64,000 nucleotides of DNA from Candidatus Omnitrophota bacterium (GTDB taxonomy: Bacteria > Omnitrophota > Gorgyraeia > Zapsychrales > JANLHA01), in the NCBI GenBank assembly GCA_040753435.1, contig JBFMEN010000003.1, forward strand, positions 10,916-74,915. The letters are read 5' to 3'. This document shows positions 3,984 to 56,800 of this stretch, piece after piece (position 1 is the stretch's first letter; each line of letters begins with the position of its first letter). The position numbers were made by a program, and so were the translations under genes. The notes under the pieces are model-generated. The model saw only the letters and a list, made by a program, of their open reading frames with translations. It did no database searches and had not been told where the DNA came from.

Positions 3984-4883
3984 GTGATGATGAAGGTGCG
4001 TCAGGAAGCGATTGAGGATAAAAATAAGCGGTTATTTGCCTTTGAACGGGAGCTGGACCAGATTTCCCTGTCTTTGCTGAATATGTTTGATGATCGCAGA
4101 CTCAAGCTGTTTTCAATCCCGCCACATAAACGAATTTTTCTTTTCTTTCTGACCCGCGCGTTGAAAACCCATCAAGCAATCAAAATTCTGTGCCGTGAAG
4201 GTTTCGGACAAGATGCAGCCGTTTTGTTGAGAAGTCTTCTCGAAAACCTGATCAGCTTTAGATATGTTCTTCATCATTCGGAAGAAGCCGATGCACTTGC
4301 AGCGCGGTTTGTAGCCTACAAATGGGTCATTTTTCATCGTCATTTATGGGAACAGGAACGCGAGGAAAGGGAGAAAGGAGATCGGGAATACCGGTTGTTT
4401 GTTCAACGAAAAGAATTGATCTTAAAGAACTTTGAAGAGTTTAAAACGAAGTATCATATAAATTCAGGGCGCGGTCTCCTGACCTGGTCCGGTCGTACTG
4501 TTAAAGATATGGCCGGTATTGTCAGTAAAGATTTATTGAAAGAATATGAATCAATGTTCAGGACGTGCTCAAAGTTTACCCATCCAAGCATAATCAGTGA
4601 CAAAGAATACATGGTTATCGACGATGAAGAGATCGTTTTTTCAGTATCGCCTTCATTGATCGGTGTTGAAATAATCCTTTCGAAAAATATAAGTTATACT
4701 TTCGATGTCCTGTCGATCTTTGCCGGACTTTTTCAATTGAAGTGCGATGTCGTACTGAATGCATTTGAACGAAAGTTTAAGGCTTATCAGGCATCATTAT
4801 CGACCTCCACTTCAGGTACAGGTGCCGGAGAAACGGCTGCATCGATTAATCGGGAAAGTATTATTGTGTTTGAGAAGAATTAA
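3984..4883 (+). CDS. Hypothetical all-helical cytoplasmic protein (possibly DUF5677-like)
   Basis: 299 aa ORF starting MMMKVRQ, tightly spaced after the antiporter. No catalytic motif was recognised. Confidence 0.45.
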   Translation: MMMKVRQEAIEDKNKRLFAFERELDQISLSLLNMFDDRRLKLFSIPPHKRIFLFFLTRALKTHQAIKILCREGFGQDAAVLLRSLLENLISFRYVLHHSEEADALAARFVAYKWVIFHRHLWEQEREEREKGDREYRLFVQRKELILKNFEEFKTKYHINSGRGLLTWSGRTVKDMAGIVSKDLLKEYESMFRTCSKFTHPSIISDKEYMVIDDEEIVFSVSPSLIGVEIILSKNISYTFDVLSIFAGLFQLKCDVVLNAFERKFKAYQASLSTSTSGTGAGETAASINRESIIVFEKN

Positions 4884-5425: not shown

Positions 5426-8347
5426 ATGAAGAAACTATTAATTTTGATACTTGTGATGATCTTCTCCACACAATATTCTCCCGTGGTATGGGCTGATGTT
5501 GTCGCTTTGACAGATGCCCAGATGGACGAGATTGCTGCGGGGGATTGGGTTATCATCGCCCAGAATGAGGATGTTGTCGATGTATTTGACAACATCAACA
5601 GGCTTGAAGCGGGTGAATCATCACAGCAAGGGCTTAATGGCCTCAGTAACGTGAATGAGGTCAACAGCGCGACTGCCGTTCAGCAGAACGTTTCTGACTC
5701 CAACGAAGGGGTCATGGACATCACAACTCGCAATGAGGCCAGTGTCACGAATTATCAACCAAGAGATGAACTGACCGTGTCGGAGACGCGAACTATTTCA
5801 GCGAGCAGCGAGAATGAAGTCCAGCAAACACAAAGGGCAATTACTTCCGACTCATTGACCGCTTCTGATCGGACAACAGCAACGAATTCGGAAAGCGCCT
5901 CTTTGGAACAGCGGGCTTCAAGCTCATTGAGCACGCTTTCTGACCAGAGCGCGAATGCTTCAGTGAGTTTTGATCAGGACAGCTCTTTAGCGACTTCAAA
6001 CAATGCTTCGAGTGACGCAAGTTTGAGCGCGGTTGATAATTTTCATTTAGAAGATCATGCGGTGAATAATACTTCGGTATCCGCGGAAACCAGCGACGCT
6101 GCATCAAGCAGTGCGTCGTTGGACAGTAACGCTGCTGCGTCTGAAAGGCATACGACTGACCAAAATGCGAATCAGGCAGCTGATGCTTCTCTGGATACAA
6201 GTGCTGCGGCATCTGAAGATCACGCGACAGATCAGGCTGCGAATCAGTCTGCGTCGGCTTCTTTAGATACTAATGCTGCGGCATCTGAAGATCACACGAC
6301 AGATCAGGCTGCGAATCAGTCTGCGTCGGCTTCTTTAGATACGAATGCTGCGGCATCTGAAGATCACACGACAGATCAGGCAGCGAATCAGTCTGCGTCG
6401 GCTTCTTTAGATACGAATGCTGCGGCATCTGAAGATCACACGACAGATCAGGCTGCGAGTCAGTCCGCGTCGGCCTCTTTAGATACGAGTGCTGCGGCAT
6501 CTGAAGATCACACGACAGATCAGGCTGCGAGCCAGTCCGCGTCGGCCTCTTTAGATACGAGTGCTGCGGCATCTGAAGATCACACGACAGATCAGGCTGC
6601 GAATCAGTCTGCGTCGGCTTCTTTAGATACGAATGCTGCGGCATCTGAAGATCACACGACAGATCAGGCTGCCAGCCAGTCAGCTTCGGCAACTCTGGAC
6701 ACCAGTGCGGCTGCTTCGGAAGATCACACCGCGGATCAGACAGCCAGCCAATCGTCATTAACGGCAGTTGATGCCAGCGCTTCGGCTTCTGAAGACCATA
6801 CAACGGATCAGTCTGCTGACCAAAGCTCTGCCTCGACTGTTGATGCGAATCTTGCGGCTTCTGAATCATTTGCTGCCGAAACGGCATCAGATGCTTTTGA
6901 AGGCGATGGAGAAGTGGCATCAACCGCAGATTCGGTTAGTTTTTCTGGAACATATGAAGAGGATAACGGATCGATTGCCCTTGATGGCGATTATGCCGAA
7001 ACACATGCGACAACATCCGATACAAAAACTTATTCAACATCAAGCAGCAGTTCTACTTCTGATACCGCTGCTCTTGATGGTGCCTTGAGTACTGCAAACG
7101 ACAGTTCATCCTCCGCGGATGCATCGACATCGGATGCCGCTCAAGCTCAGGAATCATTAGCGGCTTCACAGGATCAGAATGCTTCGGCTTCGGCATCGAC
7201 AACTGATTCTGCAGCGGCCCAACAATCTCTGACTGCAGCAAGCGATCAGGATGCAGCTGCCCAGGCATCGACAACTGATTCTGCAGCGGCTCAGCAATCC
7301 TTGACTGCGGCAAGCGATCAGGATGCAGCTGCCCAGGCATCAACAACTGATTCTGCAGCGGCTCAGCAATCCTTGACTGCGGCAAGTGATCAGGATGCGG
7401 CGGCCCAGGCATCAACAACTGATTCTGCAGCGGCTCAGCAATCTTTGACTGCGGCAAGCGATCAGGATGCAGCGGCCCAGGCATCGACAACTGATTCGGC
7501 AGCAGCGGAGCAGGCTTTAAGCGCATCAAGCGATCAGGCGGCATCAGCTTCGGCAGCTACAACGGATTCAGCAGCGGCAGAGCAGGGGTTAAGCGCGTCA
7601 AGTGATCAGGCAGCTTCTGCTTCAGCGTCAACGACTGATTCGGCGGCGGCAGAGCAGGGGTTAAGCGCGTCAAGCGATCAGGCAGCTTCTGCTTCAGCGT
7701 CAACGACGGATTCTGCGGCAGCGGAACAGACGTTAAGCGCATCAAGCAGCAATAGCGCATCGGCTTCAGCTTCGACATTAGATGAAGCTGCAGCAAATCA
7801 GTCGCTGTCGACAACGGCTGATACAGCAGAAGATCATACGGCATCCGCCAATCAAGCCGTTGCCCAGAGCAGCGACCTGATCAATGATCATGATCAATCA
7901 GTGGATCAGGCCAGTGCGGATTCAGCCAGCAGTTCATTAGATGAAACGCTAACGGTATCTTTTGATCAGAACGCTTCACAGAATGACGTGGAAACTGTCG
8001 ATGCTGAGGAAGCAACAGAGGTTATTGCAGATTCAAGCAACGATGAGAGCCTTGACACCCAAAGCGATCTGAACACTGTCAGTGAAAGCACTAACGAAGC
8101 TTCTGTAACAACCACGGTAAGTGTCGTCACTTCTGACACGACAAATACAACCATTAATGAAAGCACCGGAAAGAGTGTCAGAAATGTGCTTGTTTTAAGC
8201 GGCGGGGCGCAAAGCGAGATGAACGTGATGAGTAATGTAAACGCCGTCAGTTCAGCCATTGCGGTTCAAACGAATGTTGCGAATGCTAACGGGATTAGCG
8301 GCAGCATCAGTCACACCAATGTGGCAAATGTTGTTAACGGTTTTTAA
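5426..8347 (+). CDS. Secreted repeat protein with Fap-like amyloid motifs at both ends flanking two 24-aa tandem-repeat arrays (FapC-like candidate)
   Basis: 973 aa with signal peptide MKKLLILILVMIFSTQYSPVVWA. It has an N-terminal LTDAQMDEIAAG motif, then LNGLSNVNEVNSATAVQQNVSDSN. Then come about 10 copies of ASASLDTNAAASEDHTTDQAANQS and about 8 copies of ASTTDSAAAQQSLTAASDQDAAAQ. The C-terminus is LSGGAQSEMNVMSNVNAVSSAIAVQTNVANANG..NGF. An RBS lies upstream. Confidence 0.7.
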   Translation: MKKLLILILVMIFSTQYSPVVWADVVALTDAQMDEIAAGDWVIIAQNEDVVDVFDNINRLEAGESSQQGLNGLSNVNEVNSATAVQQNVSDSNEGVMDITTRNEASVTNYQPRDELTVSETRTISASSENEVQQTQRAITSDSLTASDRTTATNSESASLEQRASSSLSTLSDQSANASVSFDQDSSLATSNNASSDASLSAVDNFHLEDHAVNNTSVSAETSDAASSSASLDSNAAASERHTTDQNANQAADASLDTSAAASEDHATDQAANQSASASLDTNAAASEDHTTDQAANQSASASLDTNAAASEDHTTDQAANQSASASLDTNAAASEDHTTDQAASQSASASLDTSAAASEDHTTDQAASQSASASLDTSAAASEDHTTDQAANQSASASLDTNAAASEDHTTDQAASQSASATLDTSAAASEDHTADQTASQSSLTAVDASASASEDHTTDQSADQSSASTVDANLAASESFAAETASDAFEGDGEVASTADSVSFSGTYEEDNGSIALDGDYAETHATTSDTKTYSTSSSSSTSDTAALDGALSTANDSSSSADASTSDAAQAQESLAASQDQNASASASTTDSAAAQQSLTAASDQDAAAQASTTDSAAAQQSLTAASDQDAAAQASTTDSAAAQQSLTAASDQDAAAQASTTDSAAAQQSLTAASDQDAAAQASTTDSAAAEQALSASSDQAASASAATTDSAAAEQGLSASSDQAASASASTTDSAAAEQGLSASSDQAASASASTTDSAAAEQTLSASSSNSASASASTLDEAAANQSLSTTADTAEDHTASANQAVAQSSDLINDHDQSVDQASADSASSSLDETLTVSFDQNASQNDVETVDAEEATEVIADSSNDESLDTQSDLNTVSESTNEASVTTTVSVVTSDTTNTTINESTGKSVRNVLVLSGGAQSEMNVMSNVNAVSSAIAVQTNVANANGISGSISHTNVANVVNGF
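6130..6870 (+). repeat. 72-bp in-frame tandem repeat array, about 10 copies (24-aa unit ASASLDTNAAASEDHTTDQAANQS)
   Basis: Near-identical 72-nt units (gcgaatcagtctgcgtcggcttctttagatacgaatgctgcggcatctgaagatcacacgacagatcaggct) read directly in the sequence. They show occasional synonymous or conservative variants (N/S, N/T). Confidence 0.85.
7170..7740 (+). repeat. Second 72-bp in-frame tandem repeat array, about 8 copies (24-aa unit ASTTDSAAAQQSLTAASDQDAAAQ)
   Basis: Units such as gcatcgacaactgattctgcagcggctcagcaatccttgactgcggcaagcgatcaggatgcagctgcccag are repeated with minor variation. The period is the same as the first array but the unit is unrelated. Confidence 0.85.
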
Positions 8348-8406
8348 CGAGTGTTTTGGGGGAAGGAGACTTCCCCCAAAACTTTTTAAAGAATGTAAGG
8401 TGAGCT

Positions 8407-9690
8407 ATGTATCGGAAAATTATATCTATGATGATTTCAATCTGTCTTTTGTGTTCTCATGGACCGCTTGCATTTGCCAGTTATGCCGTTGTTCTCACCG
8501 ATTATGAATTGGATCAGATTTATGCCCAGGGAGTGGATGTCAGTCCCGGCGATGTTTTAAGTTCAGCGACAGTTGAGACTGCTGCTCTTGAATCAAATCC
8601 TTTTACGGAAAGTGAAAACAATAGCGTAACGTCGGTTCCTGTGACACCGGATAATCCTGTTGGACCGGCAACCCCGGTCCTGCCGGATGGTCCGACCGGC
8701 CCGGTGTTACCTGATGGGCCTTTTCCACCGGAAAGTCCTGTGTTACCAGATGGACCGGTTTTACCGGGTGGCCCTTTTGGTCCGACATCGCCGAATGGTC
8801 CGGTAGTGCCTGACAGTCCGGCGCTTCCGGACGGTCCGTTTGCACCGGGAAGCCCTGTGTTGCCGGACAGTCCTTTTGGTCCGACATCGCCGAATGGTCC
8901 GGTAGTGCCTGACAGTCCGGCGCTTCCGGACAGTCCGTTTGCACCGGGAAGTCCTGTGTTGCCGGACAGTCCTTTTGGTCCGACATCGCCGAATGGTCCG
9001 GTAGTGCCTGACAGTCCGGCGCTTCCGGACAGTCCGTTTGCACCGGGAAGTCCTGTGTTGCCGGACAGTCCTTTTGGTCCGACATCGCCGAATGGTCCGG
9101 TAGTGCCTGGCAGTCCGACGCTTCCGGACGGTCCGTTTGCACCGGGAAGTCCTAACGGGCCGATCAATCCGGTATTACCAACAGGACCTGTTAGTCCCGA
9201 ATTGCCAAATGGACCGTTTGCTCCGAACAGCCCGACTCTGCCAAATGCGCCGGGGAGTGTAACAGCGCCTCAAGCGCCAGCAGCTCCCGGGGAAGTGGCA
9301 TTAGCGGATCCTGTTGCATTAACTCCGGTCGTTCCTTCGGCACCGGGAACGCCGTCTGCTCCAAACGTCCCGGCGGCTCCAAATCCACCTATTCAGCTTG
9401 ATGTTGTCGCGGGGGGAAATGGCGGCGGTTTTCAGGTGGCGTTAAACAACAGCAGCGGTCAGTCTTTGCTGCCGGAATCTTTTACATCAAATGCGCTGGG
9501 AGCGATCAACTCAGTAGATTTGAGCGGGGCGGCCCAGCAGAATCTTTCCGCCATGGTCAATGTGAATGCGGCGGGAAGCGTTGTTCCGGTGATGATCAAT
9601 CTTACGGTATTGATGAATTCCACAGTTGAGAATCTGAGCAATTTCAATGATTTGAATTTGGCAAATTACTCGACCCTGAGAGTCCAGTGA
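8407..9690 (+). CDS. Secreted proline-rich (collagen-like PDSP/PDGP) repeat protein, paralogous at its N- and C-termini to the 5426..8347 product (FapB/C-like candidate)
   Basis: 427 aa with a signal peptide (..CSHGPLAFA). It has an N-terminal VVLTDYELDQIYAQG motif, then four 33-aa repeats (PDSPFGPTSPNGPVVPDSPALPDSPFAPGSPVL). Its C-terminal LSGAAQQNLSAMVNVNAAGSVVPVMINLTV aligns with LSGGAQSEMNVMSNVNAVSSAIAVQTNV of the upstream protein. Confidence 0.7.
   Translation: MYRKIISMMISICLLCSHGPLAFASYAVVLTDYELDQIYAQGVDVSPGDVLSSATVETAALESNPFTESENNSVTSVPVTPDNPVGPATPVLPDGPTGPVLPDGPFPPESPVLPDGPVLPGGPFGPTSPNGPVVPDSPALPDGPFAPGSPVLPDSPFGPTSPNGPVVPDSPALPDSPFAPGSPVLPDSPFGPTSPNGPVVPDSPALPDSPFAPGSPVLPDSPFGPTSPNGPVVPGSPTLPDGPFAPGSPNGPINPVLPTGPVSPELPNGPFAPNSPTLPNAPGSVTAPQAPAAPGEVALADPVALTPVVPSAPGTPSAPNVPAAPNPPIQLDVVAGGNGGGFQVALNNSSGQSLLPESFTSNALGAINSVDLSGAAQQNLSAMVNVNAAGSVVPVMINLTVLMNSTVENLSNFNDLNLANYSTLRVQ
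8750..9150 (+). repeat. 99-bp in-frame tandem repeat, about 4 copies (33-aa Pro-rich unit)
   Basis: The unit ccggacagtccttttggtccgacatcgccgaatggtccggtagtgcctgacagtccggcgcttccggacagtccgtttgcaccgggaagtcctgtgttg is repeated nearly exactly. Confidence 0.85.
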
Positions 9691-9714
9691 TAGTGAAAGG
9701 CCGGTTCGACAGCA

Positions 9715-10431
9715 ATGTCTGAGAAAAGTTGCAGAAAAACAATAAGGATTGACGTTTTAGTTCTTGTGGCCTTGGCGTTGGTCAGCATGTGTTTGTCCGA
9801 TGCCAGGGCCGCAAGTTTTTCGGTCGGCGGCGTCCGTCTTTATAAAAATGTGAAACCTCTGCGGGAAATCAAGCGGAGCAATCTAACTCCTCAGAGTCTG
9901 GATTTCAGCTGCGGGCCTGCCGGTCTTGCGACGCTGTTTCACTATTATTTAAGCGATCCCGTGTCTGAAGCAGAGATTATTACGGCGTTATTACAGACGA
10001 CGTCTTTGGAAAAGGTCAGGGCCCGTGGAGGATTTTCATTATTGGATTTAAAATCGTTTGCCGAACGGCGTGGGTACGTAGCAACAGGTTTTCAAATGGA
10101 TATCAGCGCCCTTCGCCAGTTGGGTAAACCGGTTCTGGTGCCGATTAAGTTTAAAAATTACCGGCACTTTGTCGTTGTTAAAGATGTGGTGAATGACCGT
10201 GTTTTTATTGCCGATCCTGCTTCGGGAAACATGTCATTGAAGACACATCAGTTTGAACGGATATGGTTACATGGAATTGTGCTGTTAATAGAACCATCAG
10301 GAGGCGGGATCCAGAAAAATAACGATTTAGAATTAAAGGAATCCGATCTTATTTTCGCAGATTATTCCCGATGGAGCGCAATCGTAAGGCCAAGTTTAAT
10401 TCGAACCGCAATTTACCCGACGGAGTATTAA
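9715..10431 (+). CDS. Secreted C39-like cysteine peptidase domain protein (FapD-like)
   Basis: 238 aa with a signal peptide (..CLSDARA). QSLDFSCGPAGLATLFHYY matches the Q..x..CG.A.L catalytic-Cys region of peptidase C39 (bacteriocin-processing, double-glycine peptidase) domains. Its size and periplasmic localisation resemble FapD. Confidence 0.7.
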   Translation: MSEKSCRKTIRIDVLVLVALALVSMCLSDARAASFSVGGVRLYKNVKPLREIKRSNLTPQSLDFSCGPAGLATLFHYYLSDPVSEAEIITALLQTTSLEKVRARGGFSLLDLKSFAERRGYVATGFQMDISALRQLGKPVLVPIKFKNYRHFVVVKDVVNDRVFIADPASGNMSLKTHQFERIWLHGIVLLIEPSGGGIQKNNDLELKESDLIFADYSRWSAIVRPSLIRTAIYPTEY

Positions 10432-11699
10432 TGGAATACTTGCAATATGGAAAAAGGGTGGCATGGGGCCTTGCCTTCACCGCCGCCGTTATGCTGGTAC
10501 ATGGAATTTTAAGTGAGGTAAGAAAAAGGAATGTTGAAGAATCAGTTTTGCGTGAAGAAGTCCGCCTTGAGGTGATTTCAGAGTTTGAGCAGAGGATGCA
10601 GGACATGATCCGTCTGCAGGTGGAAGAAAAAGTTGCGGCAATAAAATTGGTGAATGGCGGCAGGCTTCTCTCAGACTATGAGTTGAAAGAAAGCATTGCC
10701 GGAAATCCGGTTGAGTCACCAATAAACGCGGTTGCCCATTCCGGCGATTCCGCCGTTGTCGATCTTGTCATTAAAAGAGACGATGTTTCAGGGACAGATC
10801 AGAATGGTGAGGCGGAAGGTTTGGCAACGGAGCCGGTCACTGATAGCGAAATCGTCGAATCCATCGAGAAAACTTTGGTGCAACGGGGGAGTATCCTGCT
10901 TCCAAAAGGGACTTTACAGATGGAGCCGAGCCTTGTTTATGCCCATTTTTCCTCTAACCGGATCAATATCCAGGGGTTCAGCATTCTTCCAGTTCTCGTC
11001 ATAGGGGATATTTCAACGGAAACCGTGCGCAGGGATCTTTTTATTCAAACGCTTTCATTTAAATACGGGCTGATGCACAATTTTCAGACTGAACTTAAGA
11101 TTCCTGCGCGATATGAATACGATCGGATCACAGACACGGCCAGCGCTGAAAGCACGCGCAGTGACTTCGGGATCGGCGATGTGGAATTTGGTTTCAGCCG
11201 TCAGATCGGCTGGGAAAACGGAACCATTCCGGATCTTGTTTTTGCCATGGCCGTAAAAACTCCATCAGGAGAAGGCCCTTATAATCGTGACATCGGTTTG
11301 GGAACAGGGCACTGGGCTCTTCGCGGCAGCCTCATCGCGGCAAGGGCGAGTGATCCGGCAGTTATCTTCGGCAGCCTGAGTTATACCTGGAACATCGAAA
11401 GGGACATCGACAATTATGGAACAGTGGACCCCGGTGACTCCATCAGTTACAGCGTCGGGACCGCGATTGCGTTAAGTTATCAGACGGCGATCACATTTTC
11501 ATTCGATCAGAGCATCACCCTTCATATGGAAAGGAACGGGAGCAGCGTGTCGAATTCGTTTGTCAATGCCGCGAATTTAAGGACAGGGTTTAACTGGTCT
11601 TTGAGCGAGCGGTCTTCAGTCGATTTCGGAGTCAGTACGGGGGTCACCGAAGACGCTCCAGACGTGACTGTTGAAATACGTTTTCCCTATATTTTTTAA
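10431..11699 (+). CDS. Outer-membrane secretion channel candidate with an N-terminal coiled-coil and a C-terminal beta-barrel ending in Phe (FapF-like, Phenol_MetA_deg-type barrel)
   Basis: Its ATG overlaps the upstream stop (TAATG), indicating translational coupling. It has an N-terminal hydrophobic segment, a heptad-rich stretch (VLREEVRLEVISEFEQRMQDMIRLQVEEKVAAIK) and then alternating-hydrophobic beta strands ending in the C-terminal motif RFPYIF. The ORF-track start at 10371 was trimmed to the coupled ATG. Confidence 0.65.
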   Translation: MEYLQYGKRVAWGLAFTAAVMLVHGILSEVRKRNVEESVLREEVRLEVISEFEQRMQDMIRLQVEEKVAAIKLVNGGRLLSDYELKESIAGNPVESPINAVAHSGDSAVVDLVIKRDDVSGTDQNGEAEGLATEPVTDSEIVESIEKTLVQRGSILLPKGTLQMEPSLVYAHFSSNRINIQGFSILPVLVIGDISTETVRRDLFIQTLSFKYGLMHNFQTELKIPARYEYDRITDTASAESTRSDFGIGDVEFGFSRQIGWENGTIPDLVFAMAVKTPSGEGPYNRDIGLGTGHWALRGSLIAARASDPAVIFGSLSYTWNIERDIDNYGTVDPGDSISYSVGTAIALSYQTAITFSFDQSITLHMERNGSSVSNSFVNAANLRTGFNWSLSERSSVDFGVSTGVTEDAPDVTVEIRFPYIF

Positions 11700-11795
11700 C
11701 AGAATGCTGTCTATTTTTTCGGGAAACAGCCGGTAGCAATGAGCCATTGATAATTTATGATAAAAAAGGATTGGTAAAATTAAAAAAAGGCGGAG

Positions 11796-12095
11796 ATGAT
11801 GAAAAGAAAGATATTGATAACGTTATTATTGTTGATTTTGGGACTGGGGTTGACCTACCTCGTTTCCATGGGAGTCCAGGCGGAAGATGCGTTGGGCCAA
11901 CAGAAGATTGAGGGAGAGATTGTGGAGATGGATGAGGAGGAGGGGGTCGTTGTGATCCAGGATATGCATCCACCCAATGATGAAAAACAATTATATGCGC
12001 ATCCGCAGAAGCTGGAATCGTTCGAGGAGGGAAACAGGGTACGCGCCTATTATCAGCCAAAAGACAGTGTGATCCGGGATATGAATATGTTTTAA
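11796..12095 (+). CDS. Small secreted acidic protein (hypothetical; possible accessory of the amyloid-like locus)
   Basis: 99 aa with a signal peptide (MMKRKILITLLLLILGLGLTYLVSMGVQA) and an upstream GGCGGAG RBS. An intrinsic terminator follows it. Confidence 0.5.
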   Translation: MMKRKILITLLLLILGLGLTYLVSMGVQAEDALGQQKIEGEIVEMDEEEGVVVIQDMHPPNDEKQLYAHPQKLESFEEGNRVRAYYQPKDSVIRDMNMF

Positions 12096-12124
12096 GTTTT
12101 TTTCAAAAATATTTATGAAAATGA

Positions 12125-12150
12125 GACAGGCACAAGCCTGTCTTTTTTTA
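12125..12150 (+). terminator. Rho-independent terminator ending the amyloid-like operon
   Basis: gacaggcacaagcctgtc hairpin followed by ttttttt. Confidence 0.6.
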
Positions 12151-26936: not shown

Positions 26937-28841
26937 ATGTTTCGTGTCCTTTCGAATGCTCTATTCTTGCCAATGCTGTTGATAATGCTTTCTGGAACGG
27001 CGCTTCCTCTTCCGGAAGAGGAAAAATTGGTCTATGGCGAAGCCACATTTGACCGTTCGGGAAAGGTTTTTACGGTCAATCAGAACAGCAGCCAGCTGAT
27101 CGTTAATTACAATCGTTTCTGGATCGGCAAGTCGGAGACAGTGAGGTTCAATCAGCCCGGTATTTCCAGTGTTGTTTTAAACAGGGTGACTGGTTCAAGC
27201 CCTTCAAATATTTTCGGAACACTCTCCGCCAATGGTCAGGTCTTTCTTGTCAATCCGAACGGGATTGTGTTTGGAAGAAACGCCACGGTTGACGTCGGAG
27301 GACTTGTCGCCTCGACTTTGAAGATTTCCAACGATGATTTTAAAAACGGCAATTATGTTTTTACTGGCCGCAGCGGAACGATCGGGAATTTCGGAACGAT
27401 TCAATCCCGTGCGGGAGGATATGTGGCCCTTTTATCGCCGCAAATAAAAAACGGAGGTTCTGTGGTCGCGACCCTGGGAAGGGTAGTTCTGGCGTCAGGA
27501 GAGAGGATTACCCTTGGTCTCGATTCCGGGAATTTGATCGGTGTCGCCGTTAACGAAGAAGTCACTAAAAGCCTGGCTGCTGCAGATGCCGCCATTGAAA
27601 ATTTCGGCAGTGTTAAATCTGACGGTGGCAAGGTTATTCTGACCGCCAAGACACTTAACACGGTTTTTGATCATGCCATTAATAATGACGGGATCATTGA
27701 AGCAAACGGTTTTGGGGATCACGACGGGGAAATTCTGCTGCTGGCCGACAATGATATTACAGTTGGGGGACGCCTTGAAGCGGCGGGAGATATCCGGATC
27801 ATTTCCACCGAAGGGAACGTCGTGCATCAATTAAGTTTTATCGAAGGCGATTTAAACGGAGATGTGATCACCGGATCCGGTTTTTATGGGTCTGCTGGTA
27901 ACGATTATGTCCTGAAGAACGGAATCATGATCAGCAGTCCCTACGAGACTTTTGATATTTCGGCCGGGAACAATGTGATCATCGGCTCGGATGGAGAGGA
28001 TGCCATCAGTGTTCTTCAATGGGGATATGGGTCAGGAGACCGCGGGTTTAAATTACGGGAGGTCGGTTATTATACTACAGAGAGCGGCAGAATTTTTTAT
28101 CATCCCCTTATGATCAGCGATGATATCGGAAAAGACGGGGCCCTCATGGGGGGCGCTCGCTCGGTTTATGGCGAACCGGGATTTGAATTTTATGTCACGT
28201 TTCTTGATTATATGGCGAAGCCGCTAACCTTTTTTAGTGAAATGGCATTGAACAAGAAAGGGTTGGATCATGAGAACAGGATTGGAGATCAGTCTATTTG
28301 GGAGGATGGCGGCGACAACGATTTTAATGATGCCCAACTTGTTTTTGTGACAGAAACTTTCAAGGTGTCTGCTTCGCCGCAAATTCCCAAACCGCCAGCC
28401 CCGCCTGATCCTCCTGAACCGCCTGATCCTCCCGAACCGCCTGATCCTCCTGAACCGCCTGATCCTCCCGAACCGCCTGATCCTCCCGAACCGCCTGATC
28501 CTCCTGAACCGCCTGATCCCCCTGAACCGCCTGATCCTCCTGAACCGCCTGATCCTCCTGAGCCTCCGGATATTCCAGAAATTCCTGCCGCCGGTTCCGT
28601 TGACTCTTTGCTTCGAAAAGGGAAAGAATATTCGGATAACTTTTCTGTTTATTATGAAATTCTTTTTCCAAGTCAATTCCTGAGTTTTGAACCGGTTGCT
28701 GCAGTCGGACTTTACGCGTATCATCCATTGACTTTGGTGGATGAGAGCGCCTTTGACAATATTAGACTTGATATCGATGCCTATGAATTCGTTGAAGATC
28801 AAATTAGAAAGAAAAGGTTTTCTCCTTATTTTGGAGAATAA
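26937..28841 (+). CDS. TPS-domain (hemagglutination-activity domain) secreted protein with a (PEPPDP)n spacer: a short TpsA-like exoprotein
   Basis: Signal peptide, then NYNRFWIGKSETVRFNQPG..SVVLNRVTGSSPSNIFGTLSANGQVFLVNPNGIVFG. These are the classic NxxGI..N.F..F / NPNGI motifs of two-partner-secretion TpsA N-termini. A beta-helix-like G/N-rich body follows, then 12 copies of PEPPDP and a C-terminal ~90-aa domain. Confidence 0.75.
   Translation: MFRVLSNALFLPMLLIMLSGTALPLPEEEKLVYGEATFDRSGKVFTVNQNSSQLIVNYNRFWIGKSETVRFNQPGISSVVLNRVTGSSPSNIFGTLSANGQVFLVNPNGIVFGRNATVDVGGLVASTLKISNDDFKNGNYVFTGRSGTIGNFGTIQSRAGGYVALLSPQIKNGGSVVATLGRVVLASGERITLGLDSGNLIGVAVNEEVTKSLAAADAAIENFGSVKSDGGKVILTAKTLNTVFDHAINNDGIIEANGFGDHDGEILLLADNDITVGGRLEAAGDIRIISTEGNVVHQLSFIEGDLNGDVITGSGFYGSAGNDYVLKNGIMISSPYETFDISAGNNVIIGSDGEDAISVLQWGYGSGDRGFKLREVGYYTTESGRIFYHPLMISDDIGKDGALMGGARSVYGEPGFEFYVTFLDYMAKPLTFFSEMALNKKGLDHENRIGDQSIWEDGGDNDFNDAQLVFVTETFKVSASPQIPKPPAPPDPPEPPDPPEPPDPPEPPDPPEPPDPPEPPDPPEPPDPPEPPDPPEPPDPPEPPDIPEIPAAGSVDSLLRKGKEYSDNFSVYYEILFPSQFLSFEPVAAVGLYAYHPLTLVDESAFDNIRLDIDAYEFVEDQIRKKRFSPYFGE
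28390..28570 (+). repeat. 18-bp in-frame tandem repeat (ccgcctgatcctcctgaa), about 10-12 copies encoding (PEPPDP)n
   Basis: Read directly in the sequence; third-position variants (cct/ccc) occur between copies. Confidence 0.85.
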
Positions 28842-53805: not shown

Positions 53806-56800
53806 TTGAGAAAAATTAACTGTTTAAAATTTCATGCTGCGGGAAAGGCCCTGACCTGTTTTTTGGCTTTTTCCTTTGTGTTTAATCCTGTTATTGGGTA
53901 TGCCCAGATTGGATTAAACCCGTCATCTTCCCCAGTTCTTCCTGTTCCAGGAGCCATGGTTCCTTTGAGCGGCGCTTTTGACCCGGCCATCATCAATGGG
54001 ATAAAGATATTTCCCGATAATCCTTTTCGATTAGAGTTTCTTATTGGTTCAGGACAATCGGAATTGGAAGGGGATGACTTCAGGGAAGAGTCTAAAAAGC
54101 TTGTTCGGTATTTTTTGGCTTCATTGACTGTTCCCGACAAGGAACTCTGGGTCAACTTATCGCCCTATGAAAGAGATCGTATTATACCCGAAGCCTTTGG
54201 TATTACTGAAATGGGCCGGGATTTGCTGGCCCAGGATTATTTATTGAAACAGGTAACGGCTTCGCTGATGTATCCGGACGGGTCTCCAGGCAAAGAATTC
54301 TGGCTCCGGGTTTCCGCGAAGGCTTATGAACAATATGGGGTCACCGATGTTCCCGTTGACCTGTTTAACAGAGTATGGGTCTTGCCCGACAGGGCGGTTG
54401 TTTATGAGCAGGGAGATACTGCTTTTGTGATTGAGAGCCGTTTAAAGGTGATGCTGGATTCGGATTACGAAGCCATGCAGGGTTCCCAAGAGCCCAAGAG
54501 CCCAAGTTCCAAAGAAAAAGATTTTACATGGGCACATGGGCACATGGGCACATGGGAACTTGACTCCGGAGAGCTTTCGAAACAAATCGTTCGCGAGGTC
54601 ATCCTTCCCGAAATCGAACGAGAAGTCAACGAAGGAAAAAATTTCGCCCCGTTGCGCCAGATTTACAATTCAATGATACTCGCCACATGGTTTAAACGAA
54701 GTCTGCGGGAAGGTTTGTTGAACAAAATTTATGTCGGAAAGAACAAGATTGAAGGGGTTGATATTAGTGACAAACAGGCCAAAGAGAAGATCTACCAGCG
54801 GTACCTGGAGGCATTCCAGGAAGGGGTTTATAACCTGGTTAAAGAAGAGTATGATCCTGTTCTAAAAGAGATTGTTCCAAAGAGATACACATCCGGAGGA
54901 ATGGAATTCGGGTTGCGGCTGGATCAAACGGTCAAGAATGTCACCAGTCTGTCTTCAGCGCAGTCCAAAGATTTCGCAATGCTGGTTAAAGACAAGGGGA
55001 TCAGGAAGGTTTCCGTTGATCTGGAAAGGTCCGCAAAGACAATCCCTGCTCTAAGTTATGCTATTTATCAAGATGCGGAATATATCAACGGAAGGATTGA
55101 GGGGGGAAGATTATTTCGTCCGGGAGGGGCAAAAGATATTTTTGAATTACGCGTGCACTTGGACGAAACGCCTTTGGATTTCTCTGGGGTTGTTAAAATG
55201 ATCCTTCCGAAAGACGGAACGTTAACTATGTTCGGAAAGGGATATTGGCAGGGTTGGGAGGAATACCGCGGCGAGCCGGTAATTATTGTTATAAACAACA
55301 GAAACGTGGTTGAAGTTTATAATTCACAAAATCAAAAGATTTTCCCATTCGGAAAAAATATTATTTATCCCGGAGGAACGTACCGGAATGGAAAAGTCAA
55401 TGGAACTCCGTTTAACCCGCATGGAGCAAGGACAAAAGTTACGATTAAAGACTATATCGGTGAAAACCCGGAATTCACCGGTGTTATCCACAGAGTTCAG
55501 CTCAATAATCATGGCGGGTTGCCTTCCATGGAATATCTGGGGGTCAAATGGGCTAATATGAGCGGCTATGAAAACGCCTTTGTTACGATCGTAGTCGAAA
55601 AAGGCCGGGCTACGGCGATCTATGATGCGAGCGGGAAACAGATCTTCCCTTTCCCCCATAATTATGTCCATTTTGGGGCTCAATACAAAGACGGAAAAAT
55701 TACCGGCGGCGTTTTGGCAACCCCGCACGGGATTTCCAGCCGTTACGAATTGAACAAGTTGTTATCAGCCGCGAGAAAAAAAGATCCCGGCATGTCCTGT
55801 GTCGTCGAAAAGGTGCCGCTGAATGATAAAGGAGGGCTGACGTATTTCCTGGGGGTCGGCAAGTATTGGGCAGATAAGGCGGGATACGAAAAGGCCCTTG
55901 TTACGATTGTCGTTACTAACGGAGATGAGATTACGGTTTATGATGAGAGAGGAAAGAAGATTTTCGAAAGACTGCGGAAGGAAGAAAATTTCGTTTACTT
56001 AAATGCTCGATATGAGGAGGGGAAAATCGTCGGAGGCACGCTTCTCAATGAACGGGGAACTTTTGACCGGCGGGAGTTAAATAAAATCGTGGCGCCGCAT
56101 CCCGGGTTTACCGGGGTCATTGACAAGGTCCGCTTGTCGTTTAATGGCGGGTTGGTGAAATTTCTTGGAAAAAATGTTTGGATGGGGATGACGGAATATG
56201 CCTATCAGATGGTCACAGTTGTTATGGCCGATGGGGAAGTGACGGAAGTTTATGACAGGAGCAACGAGCCAATATATCCGTTTAAAGAGAATTTTATATA
56301 CAAAGGCGCCCGTTTGGAGAAAGGGAAAATTATCGGGGGAGAACTTGTCAATCCCCAGGGGTTTCTGGACAAAACGTTTATTGGGAAGTATCTGAATGAA
56401 CCGGAAAATGAGGATTTTACGGGAGTTATTGAGACAAGGCTGCTGTTTGATGGAGGACTTCCCGTGGGTTTAGAGGAACCCGGATGGTCGTTACAGACGG
56501 AATATAAGCATAAATTTGTTTTTATAGTGAAAGAAAAAGGGAAGACAGTCGGAATTTATGATGAGGAAGGAACTAGATTATTTCCTTATGACGCAAATTT
56601 TGTTTATTGGAACGCTGATTTTATTGATCGGGAGATTAAGGGAGGAAAGCTCCTGACCCCGGCAGGGGTGAGAACCCGTAAGAATTTAAATGAACTGCTT
56701 GCTGAATATCCGGATTTTACAGGGATTATTACGAAGCTGCCGTTTCACGATTCAGGACGGCTCGGTCAAGTGAAAGATGGAATCTATCTTGACTATGTTT

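What the first reader, a model, noticed from the sequence alone, without database searches (positions are those of the whole stretch)
5426..12150. Fap-like functional-amyloid secretion locus with hugely expanded repeat linkers
Four co-directional, tightly spaced genes reproduce the core logic of the Pseudomonas fapABCDEF functional-amyloid system.
- Two paralogous secreted proteins share conserved termini. The N-terminal motif is LTDxx[ML]D[EQ]IxAxG. The Asn/Val/Ala-rich terminal segments (LNGLSNVNEVNSATAVQQNV; LSGGAQSEMNVMSNVNAVSSAIAVQTNV / LSGAAQQNLSAMVNVNAAGSVVPVMINLTV) resemble FapB/FapC amyloid repeats (GVNVAAG..NQQ.N type).
- A periplasmic C39-like peptidase follows, like FapD.
- Then comes an outer-membrane protein with an N-terminal coiled coil and a C-terminal beta-barrel ending in an aromatic residue, like the FapF secretion channel. 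It is translationally coupled by a TAATG overlap.
- A small secreted protein and an intrinsic terminator close the unit.
- Unlike known Fap subunits (about 170-340 aa), the putative subunits here are 973 and 427 aa. Their amyloid-like motifs sit at the extreme termini, separated by acidic Ser/Thr/Ala/Asp-rich or collagen-like Pro-rich tandem-repeat linkers.
- FapA and FapE homologs were not recognised.
This may be a new divergent branch of Fap-type amyloid systems in an uncultured lineage, or an unrelated secreted-fibre system built on the same parts.
Basis: partly seen in the sequence, partly recalled or inferred. Interest (0 to 1): 0.85.

Follow-up and report, generated by a model that had tools for sequence, protein, structure and literature searches.

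The report
Fap-type secretion pair, novel hairpin cargo
An uncultured Omnitrophota bacterium carries the peptidase and outer-membrane channel of the Pseudomonas amyloid (Fap) secretion system, but they sit next to two unrelated, previously undescribed secreted proteins that all carry a bacteriocin-style "double-glycine" tag, which suggests what this peptidase family recognises.

Summary
The two machinery genes are true homologues of FapD and FapF. The C39 peptidase keeps Gln/Cys/His/Asp in 60 of 60 relatives. The outer-membrane protein matches the solved FapF barrel at E 1.6e-30.

The two large proteins are not detectably FapB/FapC. NCBIfam Fap models, profile-profile comparison and a PDB search that includes FapC all gave nothing. 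They form two new families (here A and B), seen almost only in Omnitrophota. The cassette DUF5677 – A – B – C39 – FapF-like is conserved there.

- **Tag.** Right after the Sec signal peptide, A and B carry L[ST]DxELDx[IV]xAG. This is the double-glycine leader consensus, in register. The same tag sits in the channel's periplasmic linker and in classical FapE. Every FapD/FapF-type locus with enough flanking sequence has a tagged neighbour.
- **Hairpin.** The "linkers" of A look like two arms of a long antiparallel hairpin. They hold mirror-placed repeat arrays of equal period and copy number, and one hydrophobic register centred on the midpoint.

Amyloid character is untested. Verdict: a new variant of a Fap-type secretion system with novel cargo.

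The parts
3984..4883 (+). DUF5677 gene. It is a conserved upstream neighbour of the cassette. It has no signal peptide and its role is unknown.
   Evidence: Pfam DUF5677 at 1.4e-21. It lies directly upstream of the cassette in 15 related loci.
5426..8347 (+). Type A cargo gene (973 aa, net charge -136). It is probably the major secreted subunit.
   Evidence: ORF. It has no Pfam or NCBIfam hit. The family has 56 word-indexed hits, all hypothetical or Omnitrophota. Only 96 representatives were found among 1.84e9.
5426..5494 (+). Sec-type signal peptide of A (MKKLLILILVMIFSTQYSPVVWA).
   Evidence: Read from the sequence and aligned across the family. No signal-peptide predictor was run.
5507..5542 (+). 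Double-glycine-type tag of A, LTDAQMDEIAAG (positions -12 to -1), followed by DW.
   Evidence: Motif found. Position frequencies over 50 distinct substrates match LSxxELxxIxGG in register. The consensus is documented in PMC1538908.
5588..5761 (+). N-terminal module of A (about aa 55-112; core SQ..L.GLSNVNEVNSATAVQQNV).
   Evidence: hhalign against the C-module gives 98.6%, E 1e-15. The same unit is tandemly arrayed 12-18 times in P0177 and P0183.
6185..6729 (+). Arm-1 tandem array, 24 aa x 7.6 (ASLDTNAAASEDHTTDQAANQSAS).
   Evidence: TRF.
6956..6970 (+). Inferred hairpin tip (aa 511-515, EEDNG), at the centre of the best antiparallel register (i+j=1026).
   Evidence: Register scan.
7172..7747 (+). 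Arm-2 tandem array, 24 aa x about 8 (ASTTDSAAAQQSLTAASDQDAAAQ). It is mirror-placed to arm 1.
   Evidence: TRF. The Leu residues of the two arrays pair exactly in register 1026.
8168..8344 (+). C-terminal module of A (SGGAQSEMNVMSNVNAVSSAIAVQTNV...NGF).
   Evidence: hhalign and alignments.
8353..8387 (+). 13-bp GC-rich hairpin plus T-run between A and B. It is a candidate attenuator or 3' stabiliser that would give A excess expression.
   Evidence: Scan. A comparable hairpin follows the last type A gene in 13 of 16 related loci.
8407..9690 (+). Type B cargo gene (427 aa). It is a candidate minor, adaptor or nucleator subunit.
   Evidence: ORF. The family is conserved next to the C39 gene. In L001 it is only 151 aa with no spacer.
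8494..8532 (+). Tag of B, LTDYELDQIYAQG.
8632..9306 (+). (X-X-Pro)75 spacer of B, which includes the 99-bp x 3.8 array at 8773-9153.
   Evidence: Pro occupies one triplet phase in 72 of 75 triplets. TRF. NCBIfam shows a sub-threshold match to the Pro-rich region of IgA-binding protein BAC.
9505..9687 (+). C-terminal module of B (LSGAAQQNLSAMVNVNAAGSVVPVMINLTV...).
   Evidence: hhalign against the A modules gives 76-92%.
9715..10431 (+). Secreted stand-alone C39 cysteine peptidase (FapD/FilB-like). Catalytic residues are Q60, C66, H151 and D167.
   Evidence: Pfam C39 at 5e-20. NCBIfam FilB 2.6e-36 and FapD 9.6e-35. PDB C39 domains match. The four residues are invariant in 60 of 60 homologues.
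10431..11699 (+). FapF-like outer-membrane channel. It has a signal peptide, a charged helical N-region, a linker, a plug region and a barrel (aa 138-422).
   Evidence: NCBIfam FapF 4.5e-41. PDB 5o65 FapF at 1.6e-30 over aa 138-422. Homologues named by their sources are Candidatus Omnitrophota.
10668..10703 (+). Internal copy of the tag in the channel's periplasmic linker (LSDYELKESIAG).
   Evidence: Recognisable in most of the 29 aligned homologues, e.g. LSDEELDRFVAG and LSDQELDQYVASG. A strict regex found it in 56 of 144 sequences.
11796..12095 (+). Small 99-aa ORF with a hydrophobic N-terminus. It is not a conserved member of the cassette.
   Evidence: No family hit. It is conserved only in L134.
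12123..12144 (+). Terminator-like hairpin plus T-run that closes the unit.

Best explanation
This is a two-step (Sec, then outer-membrane) secretion cassette of the FapD/FapF type. It exports cargo that is unrelated in sequence to the Pseudomonas amyloid subunits.

Shown:
- All four products begin with a signal-peptide-like N-terminus.
- The peptidase has an intact C39 active site.
- The last gene encodes a FapF-homologous barrel.
- A, B and the channel's own periplasmic linker each carry a 12-residue match to the double-glycine leader consensus. In A and B it lies directly after the signal peptide.

Inferred:
- After Sec export, the periplasmic peptidase binds this tag. It probably cleaves after AG (AG|DW in A). 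This couples unfolded cargo to the FapF-like pore.
- The copy of the tag in the channel either recruits the peptidase or is cut to gate the channel.
- Outside the cell, A folds back on itself as a long antiparallel two-armed stalk. Each arm is about 65 residues in minimal homologues and about 400 here. This brings its two homologous terminal modules together.
- The same module occurs once in B and 12-18 times in tandem in some relatives. The modules are therefore the likely self-association or stacking surface of a surface fibre or coat.
- A would be the abundant subunit, given the hairpin attenuator after its gene. B, with its rigid (X-X-Pro)75 spacer, would be a minor adaptor or anchor.

Whether the assembly is amyloid is unknown.
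For: Machinery:
- The catalytic residues are invariant in 60 of 60 homologues.

Conserved cassette:
- The order DUF5677 – A (1-2 copies) – B – C39 – FapF-like recurs in about 20 Omnitrophota-type loci with 40-68% identical channels.

Tag:
- The motif regex hits 67 of 688 ORFs lying just upstream of the channel on the same strand, against 1 of 3633 other ORFs.
- Residue frequencies over 50 distinct instances: L-12 47, S/T-11 47, E/Q-8 43, L/M-7 50, V/I-4 47, A/G-2 49, G-1 39. Compare the LSxxELxxIxGG consensus.
- Some relatives carry a true GG, for example LTDAQLDAVTGG.
- 23 of 24 non-classical loci (24 of 24 by eye) have 1-3 tagged ORFs upstream of the peptidase.
- 33 of 34 classical Fap loci have a tagged FapE just downstream of FapD. 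None has a tagged FapB or FapC.
- Rouse 2017 found that FapD activity is required, that its target is unknown, and that FapE alone lacks its N-terminal peptides.
- The tag lies in the channel linker in most of 29 homologues.

Hairpin:
- AF2 with a 45-sequence alignment gives one long beta-hairpin (E116-180 / E185-249, pLDDT 81-88) in a minimal type A.
- Five long type A proteins each have two different arrays of equal period and copy number, mirror-placed: 24x7.6/24x8, 22x3.9/22x4.0, 54x2.2/54x2.1, 44x1.8/44x2.4, 48x2.4/48x2.4.
- A single best antiparallel hydrophobic register lies within 1-5 residues of the geometric midpoint in six proteins. Pair counts are 14-27, against a shuffle maximum of 10-16.
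- These counts beat the best parallel offset every time: 23v17, 15v9, 21v9, 14v10, 20v13, 27v15. Hydrophobic counts are nearly equal in the two arms.

Modules:
- Modules are homologous to each other and tandemly arrayed in P0177 and P0183.

Expression:
- A hairpin follows the last type A gene in 13 of 16 loci.
Against: - No cleavage, secretion or fibre has been observed. Every step after 'the genes encode these proteins' is inference.
- In type B the residue at -1 in the canonical register is variable (Q, G, E, R, A). In FapE it is R or K. Cleavage at the canonical position is therefore doubtful for these, and the tag might only be bound.
- Position -2 is Ala, not Gly, in most instances.
- AF2 on the window's own 973-aa protein was uninformative (pLDDT 48). 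It drew part of arm 2 as a helix, so the secondary structure of the long arms is not settled.
- The module regions of the minimal model reach only pLDDT 55-72.
- A residue-identity mirror test was not specific.
- The signal peptides were judged by eye only.
Confidence: 0.6

Rival explanations
1. It is a true but highly diverged Fap amyloid system. A and B would descend from FapC/FapB, their Asn/Val/Ala-rich modules would be diverged Fap repeats, and the product would be a cross-beta amyloid fibre.
For: - The D/F machinery is homologous to Fap.
- The cargo genes lie upstream of the peptidase, as fapB and fapC do.
- The modules are imperfect repeats rich in N, Q, A, V, S and G, and they can be tandemly arrayed.
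- By eye, N-x6-N-x-Q-x-N spacing can be matched between SNANAVDSAVNVQTN and GVNVAAGQGNQQKN (my own reading).
- FapC linkers also vary in length.
Against: - The NCBIfam FapB/C/E models give no hit at E<=1, while Pseudomonas controls score 1e-82 to 1e-105.
- hhalign of modules against the FapB/FapC families gives at most 0.2%. The unit-level comparison gives 1.5%.
- A type-A profile does not find FapC chains in the PDB.
- FapB and FapC lack the tag that A and B carry.
Confidence: 0.12
2. The tag is a targeting or docking signal that is not cleaved. The C39 domain would act as a receptor or chaperone that hands tagged proteins to the channel. The channel's own tag would tether the peptidase as a pseudo-substrate.
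For: - The residue at -1 is not conserved in type B or FapE.
- C39-like domains that bind but do not cut are known in type 1 secretion (cited).
- A tag inside the channel itself makes sense as a tether.
Against: - Q, C, H and D are invariant in 60 of 60 homologues. This argues for catalysis.
- FapD C38A abolishes secretion in Pseudomonas.
- Type A and the channel linker keep AG at -2/-1 in the canonical register.
Confidence: 0.2
3. The central regions of A are simply disordered, fast-evolving low-complexity spacers. The apparent mirror symmetry would be a by-product of repeat composition.
For: - The composition is extreme: A 25%, S 22%, T 12%, D 11%.
- AF2 on the full window protein gives pLDDT around 30 over most of arm 1.
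- Residue-identity mirror scores are no better than direct arm-to-arm scores.
Against: - Equal period and equal copy number of two different arrays recur in five independent proteins with periods of 22, 24, 44, 48 and 54 aa.
- The best antiparallel register coincides with the geometric midpoint in six of six proteins. It exceeds both the shuffles and the parallel control.
- 14 of the window's 22 paired hydrophobic residues lie outside the arrays.
- AF2 gives a hairpin at pLDDT 81-88 in the minimal homologue.
Confidence: 0.15
4. The cargo does not form a fibre. It would be a monomeric, very acidic surface 'hair', or a cation- or mineral-binding coat, or an adhesin. The terminal modules would serve only to anchor it.
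For: - A has a net charge of -136 and a stalk rich in Ser, Thr and Asp.
- The hairpin model gives a self-contained molecule.
- There is no evidence of polymerisation.
Against: - The module is shared between A and B.
- It occurs as 12-18 tandem copies in relatives. This suggests module-to-module stacking.
- The attenuator pattern is typical of a bulk structural subunit.
Confidence: 0.25

Closest known systems
Pseudomonas Fap functional-amyloid system (fapABCDEF)
   Same: - Both have a periplasmic stand-alone C39 peptidase (FapD) and a FapF-type outer-membrane barrel encoded side by side, with the cargo genes upstream.
- Both use the Sec-then-outer-membrane route.
- The channel has an N-terminal helical region, a linker and a plug ahead of the barrel.
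- FapE carries a related tag ([LMV]x[DE]xELxE[ILM]RG[RK][FY]) directly after its signal peptide.
   Different: - There is no detectable FapA, FapB, FapC or FapE homologue.
- There is no gene between the peptidase and the channel.
- All cargo proteins, and the channel itself, carry the tag. In Fap only FapE does.
- The cargo is built as a mirror-armed hairpin, or as an (X-X-Pro)n spacer, with terminal modules.
- The scores against the FapD and FapF models are far below the NCBIfam equivalog cut-offs: 120 bits against 330, and 141 against 700.
Acinetobacter Fil 'putative pilus system' (NCBIfam FilB C39 peptidase, FilC)
   Same: The peptidase scores marginally best against FilB (2.6e-36). The channel also matches FilC (1.3e-15).
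   Different: Both scores are far below the cut-offs (125 against 475, and 58 against 630). No other Fil component matched A or B. The channel is closer to FapF than to FilC. No Fil sequence could be fetched, so Fil cargo was not checked for the tag.
Double-glycine leader / peptidase-containing ABC transporter (PCAT) export of bacteriocins
   Same: The leader consensus LSxxELxxIxGG is matched position by position. The C39 fold and catalytic residues align to LahT, PCAT1 and ComA peptidase domains.
   Different: - The peptidase is not fused to an ABC transporter and has its own signal peptide.
- The leader follows a Sec signal peptide instead of starting the protein.
- The cargo is 150-1300 aa, not a peptide.
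- Position -2 is usually Ala.
Curli (CsgA/CsgB with the CsgG channel)
   Same: It is also a Sec-dependent export of unfolded, imperfect-repeat, N/Q-rich subunits through a dedicated outer-membrane channel. It also has a major and a minor subunit.
   Different: The channel is unrelated. There is no peptidase and no tag. No sequence comparison with curli proteins was run here; this is an analogy from general knowledge.

Membership tests
Fap system (fapABCDEF) | FapF-type outer-membrane secretion barrel. | tested here: met
   PDB FapF 5o65 matches at E 1.6e-30 over aa 138-422, including the terminal FPYxF. NCBIfam FapF scores 4.5e-41, but at 141 bits against an equivalog cut-off of 700. It is a homologue, not an equivalog.
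Fap system (fapABCDEF) | Periplasmic stand-alone C39 peptidase (FapD) with the catalytic Cys and His. | tested here: met
   NCBIfam FapD scores 9.6e-35 (120 bits against a cut-off of 330). Q60, C66, H151 and D167 are invariant in 60 of 60 homologues. The N-terminus resembles a signal peptide (by eye).
Fap system (fapABCDEF) | FapC/FapB subunits with GN-x-G-x-N-x-AAG-xx-NQQ-x-N repeats. | tested here: not met
   NCBIfam FapB and FapC give no hit at E<=1, with positive controls at 1e-82. hhalign gives at most 1.5%. A PDB search with the profile finds no FapC chain.
Fap system (fapABCDEF) | FapE encoded between fapD and fapF. | tested here: not met
   The C39 and channel genes overlap by 1 nt. 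phmmer finds no FapE. Only the N-terminal tag is shared; hhalign of the A N-region against FapE gives 49%, covering the signal peptide and tag only.
Fap system (fapABCDEF) | The FapA accessory protein. | tested here: not met
   phmmer with FapA hits only the three Pseudomonas loci. FapA is also the component most often missing in known Fap loci.
Fap system (fapABCDEF) | The product is an amyloid fibre (cross-beta, dye-binding, detergent-resistant). | not testable with these tools
   Only AF2 was available. The minimal type A is predicted all-beta at mean pLDDT 68.
Fap system (fapABCDEF) | Trimeric channel with an N-terminal coiled coil. | not tested
   A charged helical-looking segment (aa about 30-75) precedes the linker (by eye). 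No coiled-coil predictor or multimer model was run.
Acinetobacter Fil system | FilB and FilC equivalogs, plus FilA/D/E/F. | tested here: not met
   FilB scores 125 bits against a cut-off of 475, and FilC 58 against 630. No other NCBIfam family hit A, B or the small ORF.
Double-glycine leader / PCAT export | Leader consensus LSxxELxxIxGG on the cargo. | tested here: met
   The register and residues match at -12, -11, -8, -7, -4 and -1. Position -2 is Ala in 41 of 50 instances and Gly in 8 of 50.
Double-glycine leader / PCAT export | C39 domain fused to an ABC transporter, with the leader at the extreme N-terminus of a cytoplasmic precursor. | tested here: not met
   The peptidase is a 238-aa stand-alone protein with its own hydrophobic N-terminus. 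The leader follows a signal peptide.

The most novel reading that the evidence does not exclude
FapD/FapF-type pairs may form a general, multi-phylum outer-membrane secretion pathway. Its sorting signal would be a double-glycine-type tag exposed once the Sec signal peptide is removed. Classical Fap would be the special case in which only FapE keeps the tag. That would identify the long-sought FapD substrate and recognition site. In Omnitrophota the pathway would export a new kind of protein: a mirror-armed hairpin whose length changes through matched tandem duplications in both arms.
Probability: 0.45. Interest if true: 0.85.

Novelty: new variant of a known kind. Interest (0 to 1): 0.7.

Why it matters
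- **FapD's target.** The target of FapD has been an open question since 2017. A conserved double-glycine-type tag lies on every neighbouring cargo protein, on FapE and on the channel linker. This gives a specific, cheaply testable answer.
- **A modular pathway.** The result recasts Fap as one branch of a modular secretion pathway that carries very different cargo.
- **An unusual evolutionary pattern.** The matched repeat expansions in the two arms of type A would be a protein-level analogue of compensatory change in an RNA stem.
- **Omnitrophota surfaces.** The locus points to an abundant surface structure in Omnitrophota, a phylum of mostly uncultured bacteria about whose surfaces little is known.

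Tried and rejected
- **Fap homology of the cargo.** I tested this five ways: NCBIfam, pairwise phmmer, family hhalign, repeat-unit hhalign, and a PDB profile search with FapC present. All were negative.
- **Type B as a relocated FapE.** hhalign of the B N- and C-regions against FapE gives 3.5% and 0%. Only the tag is shared, so I dropped this.
- **Residue-level palindrome between the two arms of A.** Mirror identity was no better than direct identity, and it peaked half a period off. Dropped.
- **AF2 of the full 973-aa window protein.** Mean pLDDT was 48 with mixed helix and coil, so it was not usable.
- **Foldseek of the minimal type A model against the PDB.** It found only the long beta-hairpin stems of pore-forming toxins and phage tails (E>=1.9e-3, TM<0.2). 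This is a similarity in shape, not a relationship.
- **Collagen reading of type B.** Rejected, because Pro and not Gly is the invariant triplet residue. The Gly-X-Y ORF on the minus strand (8520..9167) is its mirror artefact.
- **Exact-match look-up of the window's peptidase in public assemblies.** Nothing is on record.
- **Literature.** I found no paper on Omnitrophota Fap-like loci or on a periplasmic C39 peptidase reading a post-signal-peptide double-glycine tag.
- **Pfam scan of cargo from the intermediate loci.** Nothing significant.

Full report
**1.

The ORF listing gives five co-directional ORFs:
- A: 5426..8347 (973 aa)
- B: 8407..9690 (427 aa)
- a C39 peptidase: 9715..10431 (238 aa)
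- an outer-membrane protein: 10431..11699 (422 aa from the ATG that overlaps the peptidase stop in TAATG)
- a 99-aa ORF: 11796..12095

A terminator-like hairpin follows at 12123..12144.

**2. The machinery is Fap-type**

*Peptidase.*
- It matches Pfam Peptidase_C39 (5e-20).
- In NCBIfam it matches FilB (2.6e-36) and FapD (9.6e-35). Both scores are far below the equivalog cut-offs.
- It aligns to solved double-glycine peptidase domains (LahT 6mpz, PCAT1, ComA), with the Cys and His in place.
- Across 60 distinct homologues from all loci gathered here, Q60, C66, H151 and D167 are invariant.

*Outer-membrane protein.*
- It matches NCBIfam FapF (4.5e-41) and FilC (1.3e-15).
- It matches the crystal-structure sequence of the Pseudomonas FapF barrel (5o65) at 1.6e-30 over residues 138-422. 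The match includes the plug region and the terminal FPYxF.

**3. Origin and conservation**

The 120 listed homologues of the channel are 40-68% identical. Every one that a source names is Candidatus Omnitrophota. The exact peptidase sequence is not in the public collection.

Gene neighbourhoods show the same cassette in about 20 loci: DUF5677, sometimes an AraC/PocR regulator, one or two type A genes, one type B gene, the C39 peptidase and the FapF-like channel (metagenome scan, tabulated). The small 99-aa ORF recurs only in the closest relative (L134), so it is not part of the conserved unit.

**4. The cargo is not FapB/FapC**

I fetched real fap operons from Pseudomonas and used them as queries and positive controls.
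- Pairwise phmmer finds FapB, FapC and FapE only in classical loci, never in the Omnitrophota-type ones.
- The NCBIfam FapB, FapC and FapE models score the Pseudomonas proteins at 1e-82 to 1e-105. They give nothing at E<=1 for A, B, a minimal type A, or an 18-module relative.
- Profile-profile comparison of the terminal modules with the FapB and FapC families gives at most 0.2% probability.
- A repeat-unit profile (72 module copies) against 60 Fap repeat units gives 1.5%.
- A type A profile finds no FapC chain in the PDB at E<=10, although FapC is deposited as 9u4u and 9nqd.

**5. What the cargo is**

A and B define two families with no Pfam or NCBIfam model. They share a module of about 58 residues, roughly NxLxL..xSQxxLxAVSNLNAV.SAxAVQTNI...NxAxVxN.
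- In A it occurs at both ends (N- against C-module: 98.6%, E 1e-15).
- In B it occurs once, at the C-terminus (87-92% to A's C-module).

A full HMMER search of 1.84 billion cluster representatives with a 45-sequence type A profile found only 96 relatives at E<=1e-3. The family is therefore rare and narrow. Two of those relatives (P0177, 1283 aa; P0183, 1000 aa) are tandem arrays of 12-18 such modules. This shows the module is a self-standing structural repeat.

The region between the conserved ends is extremely variable:
- Type A ranges from about 305 to more than 1050 aa.
- Type B ranges from 151 aa (no spacer at all, L001) to 609 aa.

In the window's B the spacer is (X-X-Pro)75. Pro holds one triplet phase in 72 of 75 triplets and Gly never does. 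It is therefore polyproline-like, not collagen. The Gly-X-Y ORF on the minus strand (8520..9167) is its mirror artefact.

**6. The 'linkers' of A look like two arms of a hairpin**

Four lines of evidence agree.
- **AF2 on a minimal homologue.** AF2 on P0123 with a 45-sequence alignment gives an all-beta model of mean pLDDT 68. Its best part (pLDDT 81-88) is one long hairpin, strands 116-180 and 185-249, between the two modules.
- **Mirror-placed arrays.** Each of five long type A proteins contains two different tandem arrays with the same period and nearly the same copy number. They are placed symmetrically about the midpoint:
  - window: 24 aa x 7.6 and 24 aa x about 8
  - L001: 22 x 3.9 and 22 x 4.0
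  - L004: 54 x 2.2 and 54 x 2.1
  - L089: 44 x 1.8 and 44 x 2.4
  - L097: 48 x 2.4 and 48 x 2.4
- **One best register.** I scanned all antiparallel registers for hydrophobic-hydrophobic pairs. This gives one clear optimum per protein, within 1-5 residues of the geometric midpoint between the modules.
  - In the window it is i+j=1026, with the tip at EEDNG (511-515) and 23 pairs. Shuffles average a maximum of 8.4 and never exceed 12.
  - In the first count (22 pairs), 14 pairs lie outside the arrays, from 132/894 to 476/550.
- **Parallel control.** The optimum beats the best parallel arm-to-arm offset in all six proteins: 23v17, 15v9, 21v9, 14v10, 20v13, 27v15. The two arms also hold nearly equal numbers of hydrophobic residues.

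All five periods are even numbers, which is what a beta-strand would prefer. This is only a weak hint. The tip often carries CxxC.

Caveats:
- AF2 on the full window protein failed (pLDDT 48) and drew part of arm 2 as a helix.
- A residue-identity mirror test was not specific.
- Foldseek hits to toxin stems only reflect a similar shape.

I take the antiparallel pairing as likely (about 0.7). Its beta character is less certain.

**7. The tag**

Immediately after the signal peptide, A reads LTDAQMDEIAAG|DW and B reads LTDYELDQIYAQG. Over 50 distinct neighbouring ORFs, the residue frequencies are as follows.

| Position | Residue(s) | Count of 50 |
|---|---|---|
| -12 | L | 47 |
| -11 | S/T | 47 |
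| -10 | D | 47 |
| -8 | E/Q | 43 |
| -7 | L/M | 50 |
| -6 | D | 43 |
| -4 | V/I | 47 |
| -2 | A/G | 49 |
| -1 | G | 39 |

This is the double-glycine leader consensus LSxxELxxIxGG, in register. Those leaders are the substrates of C39 peptidases. The counts are conditional on the motif regex used to collect the instances.

- **Specificity.** The motif regex hits 67 of 688 same-strand ORFs just upstream of the channel gene, against 1 of 3633 other ORFs in the same loci.
- **Other lineages.** More distant FapD/FapF-like loci have 2-4 small secreted ORFs with the tag. Some carry a true GG, such as LTDAQLDAVTGGEA and LSDAELDNICVGG.
- **Census.** 23 of 24 non-classical loci with enough upstream sequence have 1-3 tagged ORFs upstream of the peptidase. 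By eye it is 24 of 24. No classical Fap locus has a tagged ORF upstream, but 33 of 34 have one immediately downstream of FapD. That ORF is FapE, for example IEMNDAELAELRGRF, FTEVSEQQLSEIRGKF and LKEIPDPELNLMRGRY.
- **The channel itself.** The FapF-like channel carries the tag in its periplasmic linker (window LSDYELKESIAG, residues 80-91). It is recognisable in most of 29 aligned homologues, for example LSDEELDRFVAG and LSDQELDQYVASG.

*Fit with experiment.* Rouse et al. 2017 showed three things:
- FapD is periplasmic and its catalytic Cys is needed for secretion.
- Its target is unknown, because Fap proteins lack canonical C39 sites.
- FapE is the only Fap protein whose N-terminal region is missing in mass spectrometry.

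They also speculated that FapD might cut the FapF linker. The 2018 review noted fapD-fapF pairs in five more phyla, without cargo. I found no later paper that resolves this.

**8. Mechanism proposed**

*Shown:*
- The gene content and the homology of the machinery.
- The intact active site of the peptidase.
- The tag, its distribution and the module relationships.
- The mirror arrays.

*Inferred:*
- Sec export comes first. The periplasmic peptidase then recognises the newly exposed tag and probably cleaves it.
- Unfolded cargo is handed to the FapF-like pore. The channel's own tag acts as a tether or a gate.
- On the surface, A folds into a hairpin stalk with its two modules together. Modules of A and B stack into a fibre or coat.

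A GC-rich hairpin follows the last type A gene in 13 of 16 loci (window 8353..8382, with a T-run). This would fit A being made in excess as the major subunit.

Weak points:
- Position -1 is not conserved in B or FapE, so those may be bound rather than cut.
- Nothing here tests for amyloid.

**9. Comparison and verdict**

The system works like Fap in its export route and machinery. It fails the membership test on the subunits, which are the part that makes Fap an amyloid system. It borrows the recognition logic of double-glycine bacteriocin export, but in the periplasm and without an ABC transporter.

I file it as a new variant of a known kind. The locus itself is a moderately interesting new cargo class. 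The tag rule and the mirror-armed hairpin are the parts a specialist would find surprising, and both can be tested directly.

Noticed in passing
window 8520..9167 (- strand): A 215-aa ORF reads as perfect Gly-X-Y 'collagen'. It is the antisense mirror of the (X-X-Pro)75 spacer of type B and is almost certainly not a gene. Other long minus-strand ORFs inside the repeats of A (6270..6923, 7053..7544) are likewise artefacts.
   Followed up: partly
window 8353..8387; intergenic regions in L001, L002, L004, L087, L090-L095, L097, L108, L123: A 10-14 bp GC-rich perfect hairpin follows the last type A gene in 13 of 16 related loci. Its position is conserved but its sequence is not. It may be an attenuator or an mRNA-stabilising element that sets the A:B ratio.
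   Followed up: partly
window 3984..4883 and the equivalent gene in 15 loci: A DUF5677 gene (no signal peptide) is conserved directly upstream of the cassette across Omnitrophota. An AraC/PocR-type regulator is often adjacent in relatives but not in this window. Any functional link is unknown.
   Followed up: no
P0123 and 4 other type A proteins, residues about 6-77: Pfam DUF6160 is the only recurring weak hit of type A N-termini (5 of 45 members, best E 0.03, below threshold). It might be a family of tagged cargo in other lineages. This is unverified.
   Followed up: partly
L101-L104; P0095-P0119: A sister group of FapF-like channels has a PF16656 (purple-acid-phosphatase N-terminal, FN3-like) domain in place of the helical N-region. 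Their loci still encode tagged cargo upstream, such as LSDAELDNICVGGFDFNL.
   Followed up: partly
L110, L114, L115 (high-GC metagenome contigs): These loci have four small tagged ORFs in a row upstream of the peptidase. Two of them have canonical GG (LTDAQLDAVTGG, LNDVALDAVYGG). A sigma-54-type two-component pair lies upstream.
   Followed up: no
P0229 (649 aa): This protein has nine tandem copies of a variant module (SQNxxxAxSxANIADSGANIGQNIAKV). Its GxNxGQN core looks, by eye, intermediate between the Omnitrophota module and Fap repeats. This was not tested.
   Followed up: no
window 26937..28841: An ORF carries a TPS (two-partner secretion) domain (Pfam 1.5e-37). This is another secreted-protein system in the same window.
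   Followed up: no
window 53806..60558: A 2250-aa ORF has a central SNF2/helicase core (Pfam SNF2-rel_dom 3.4e-35) and about 1200 unannotated N-terminal residues.
   Followed up: no
type A hairpin tips (L001, L089, L093, L002 and minimal homologues): A CxxC motif sits at the inferred hairpin tip in many type A proteins (DTCADCD, ECKDCE), but not in the window's copy (EEDNG). FapC also has a conserved CxxC of unknown role.
   Followed up: no
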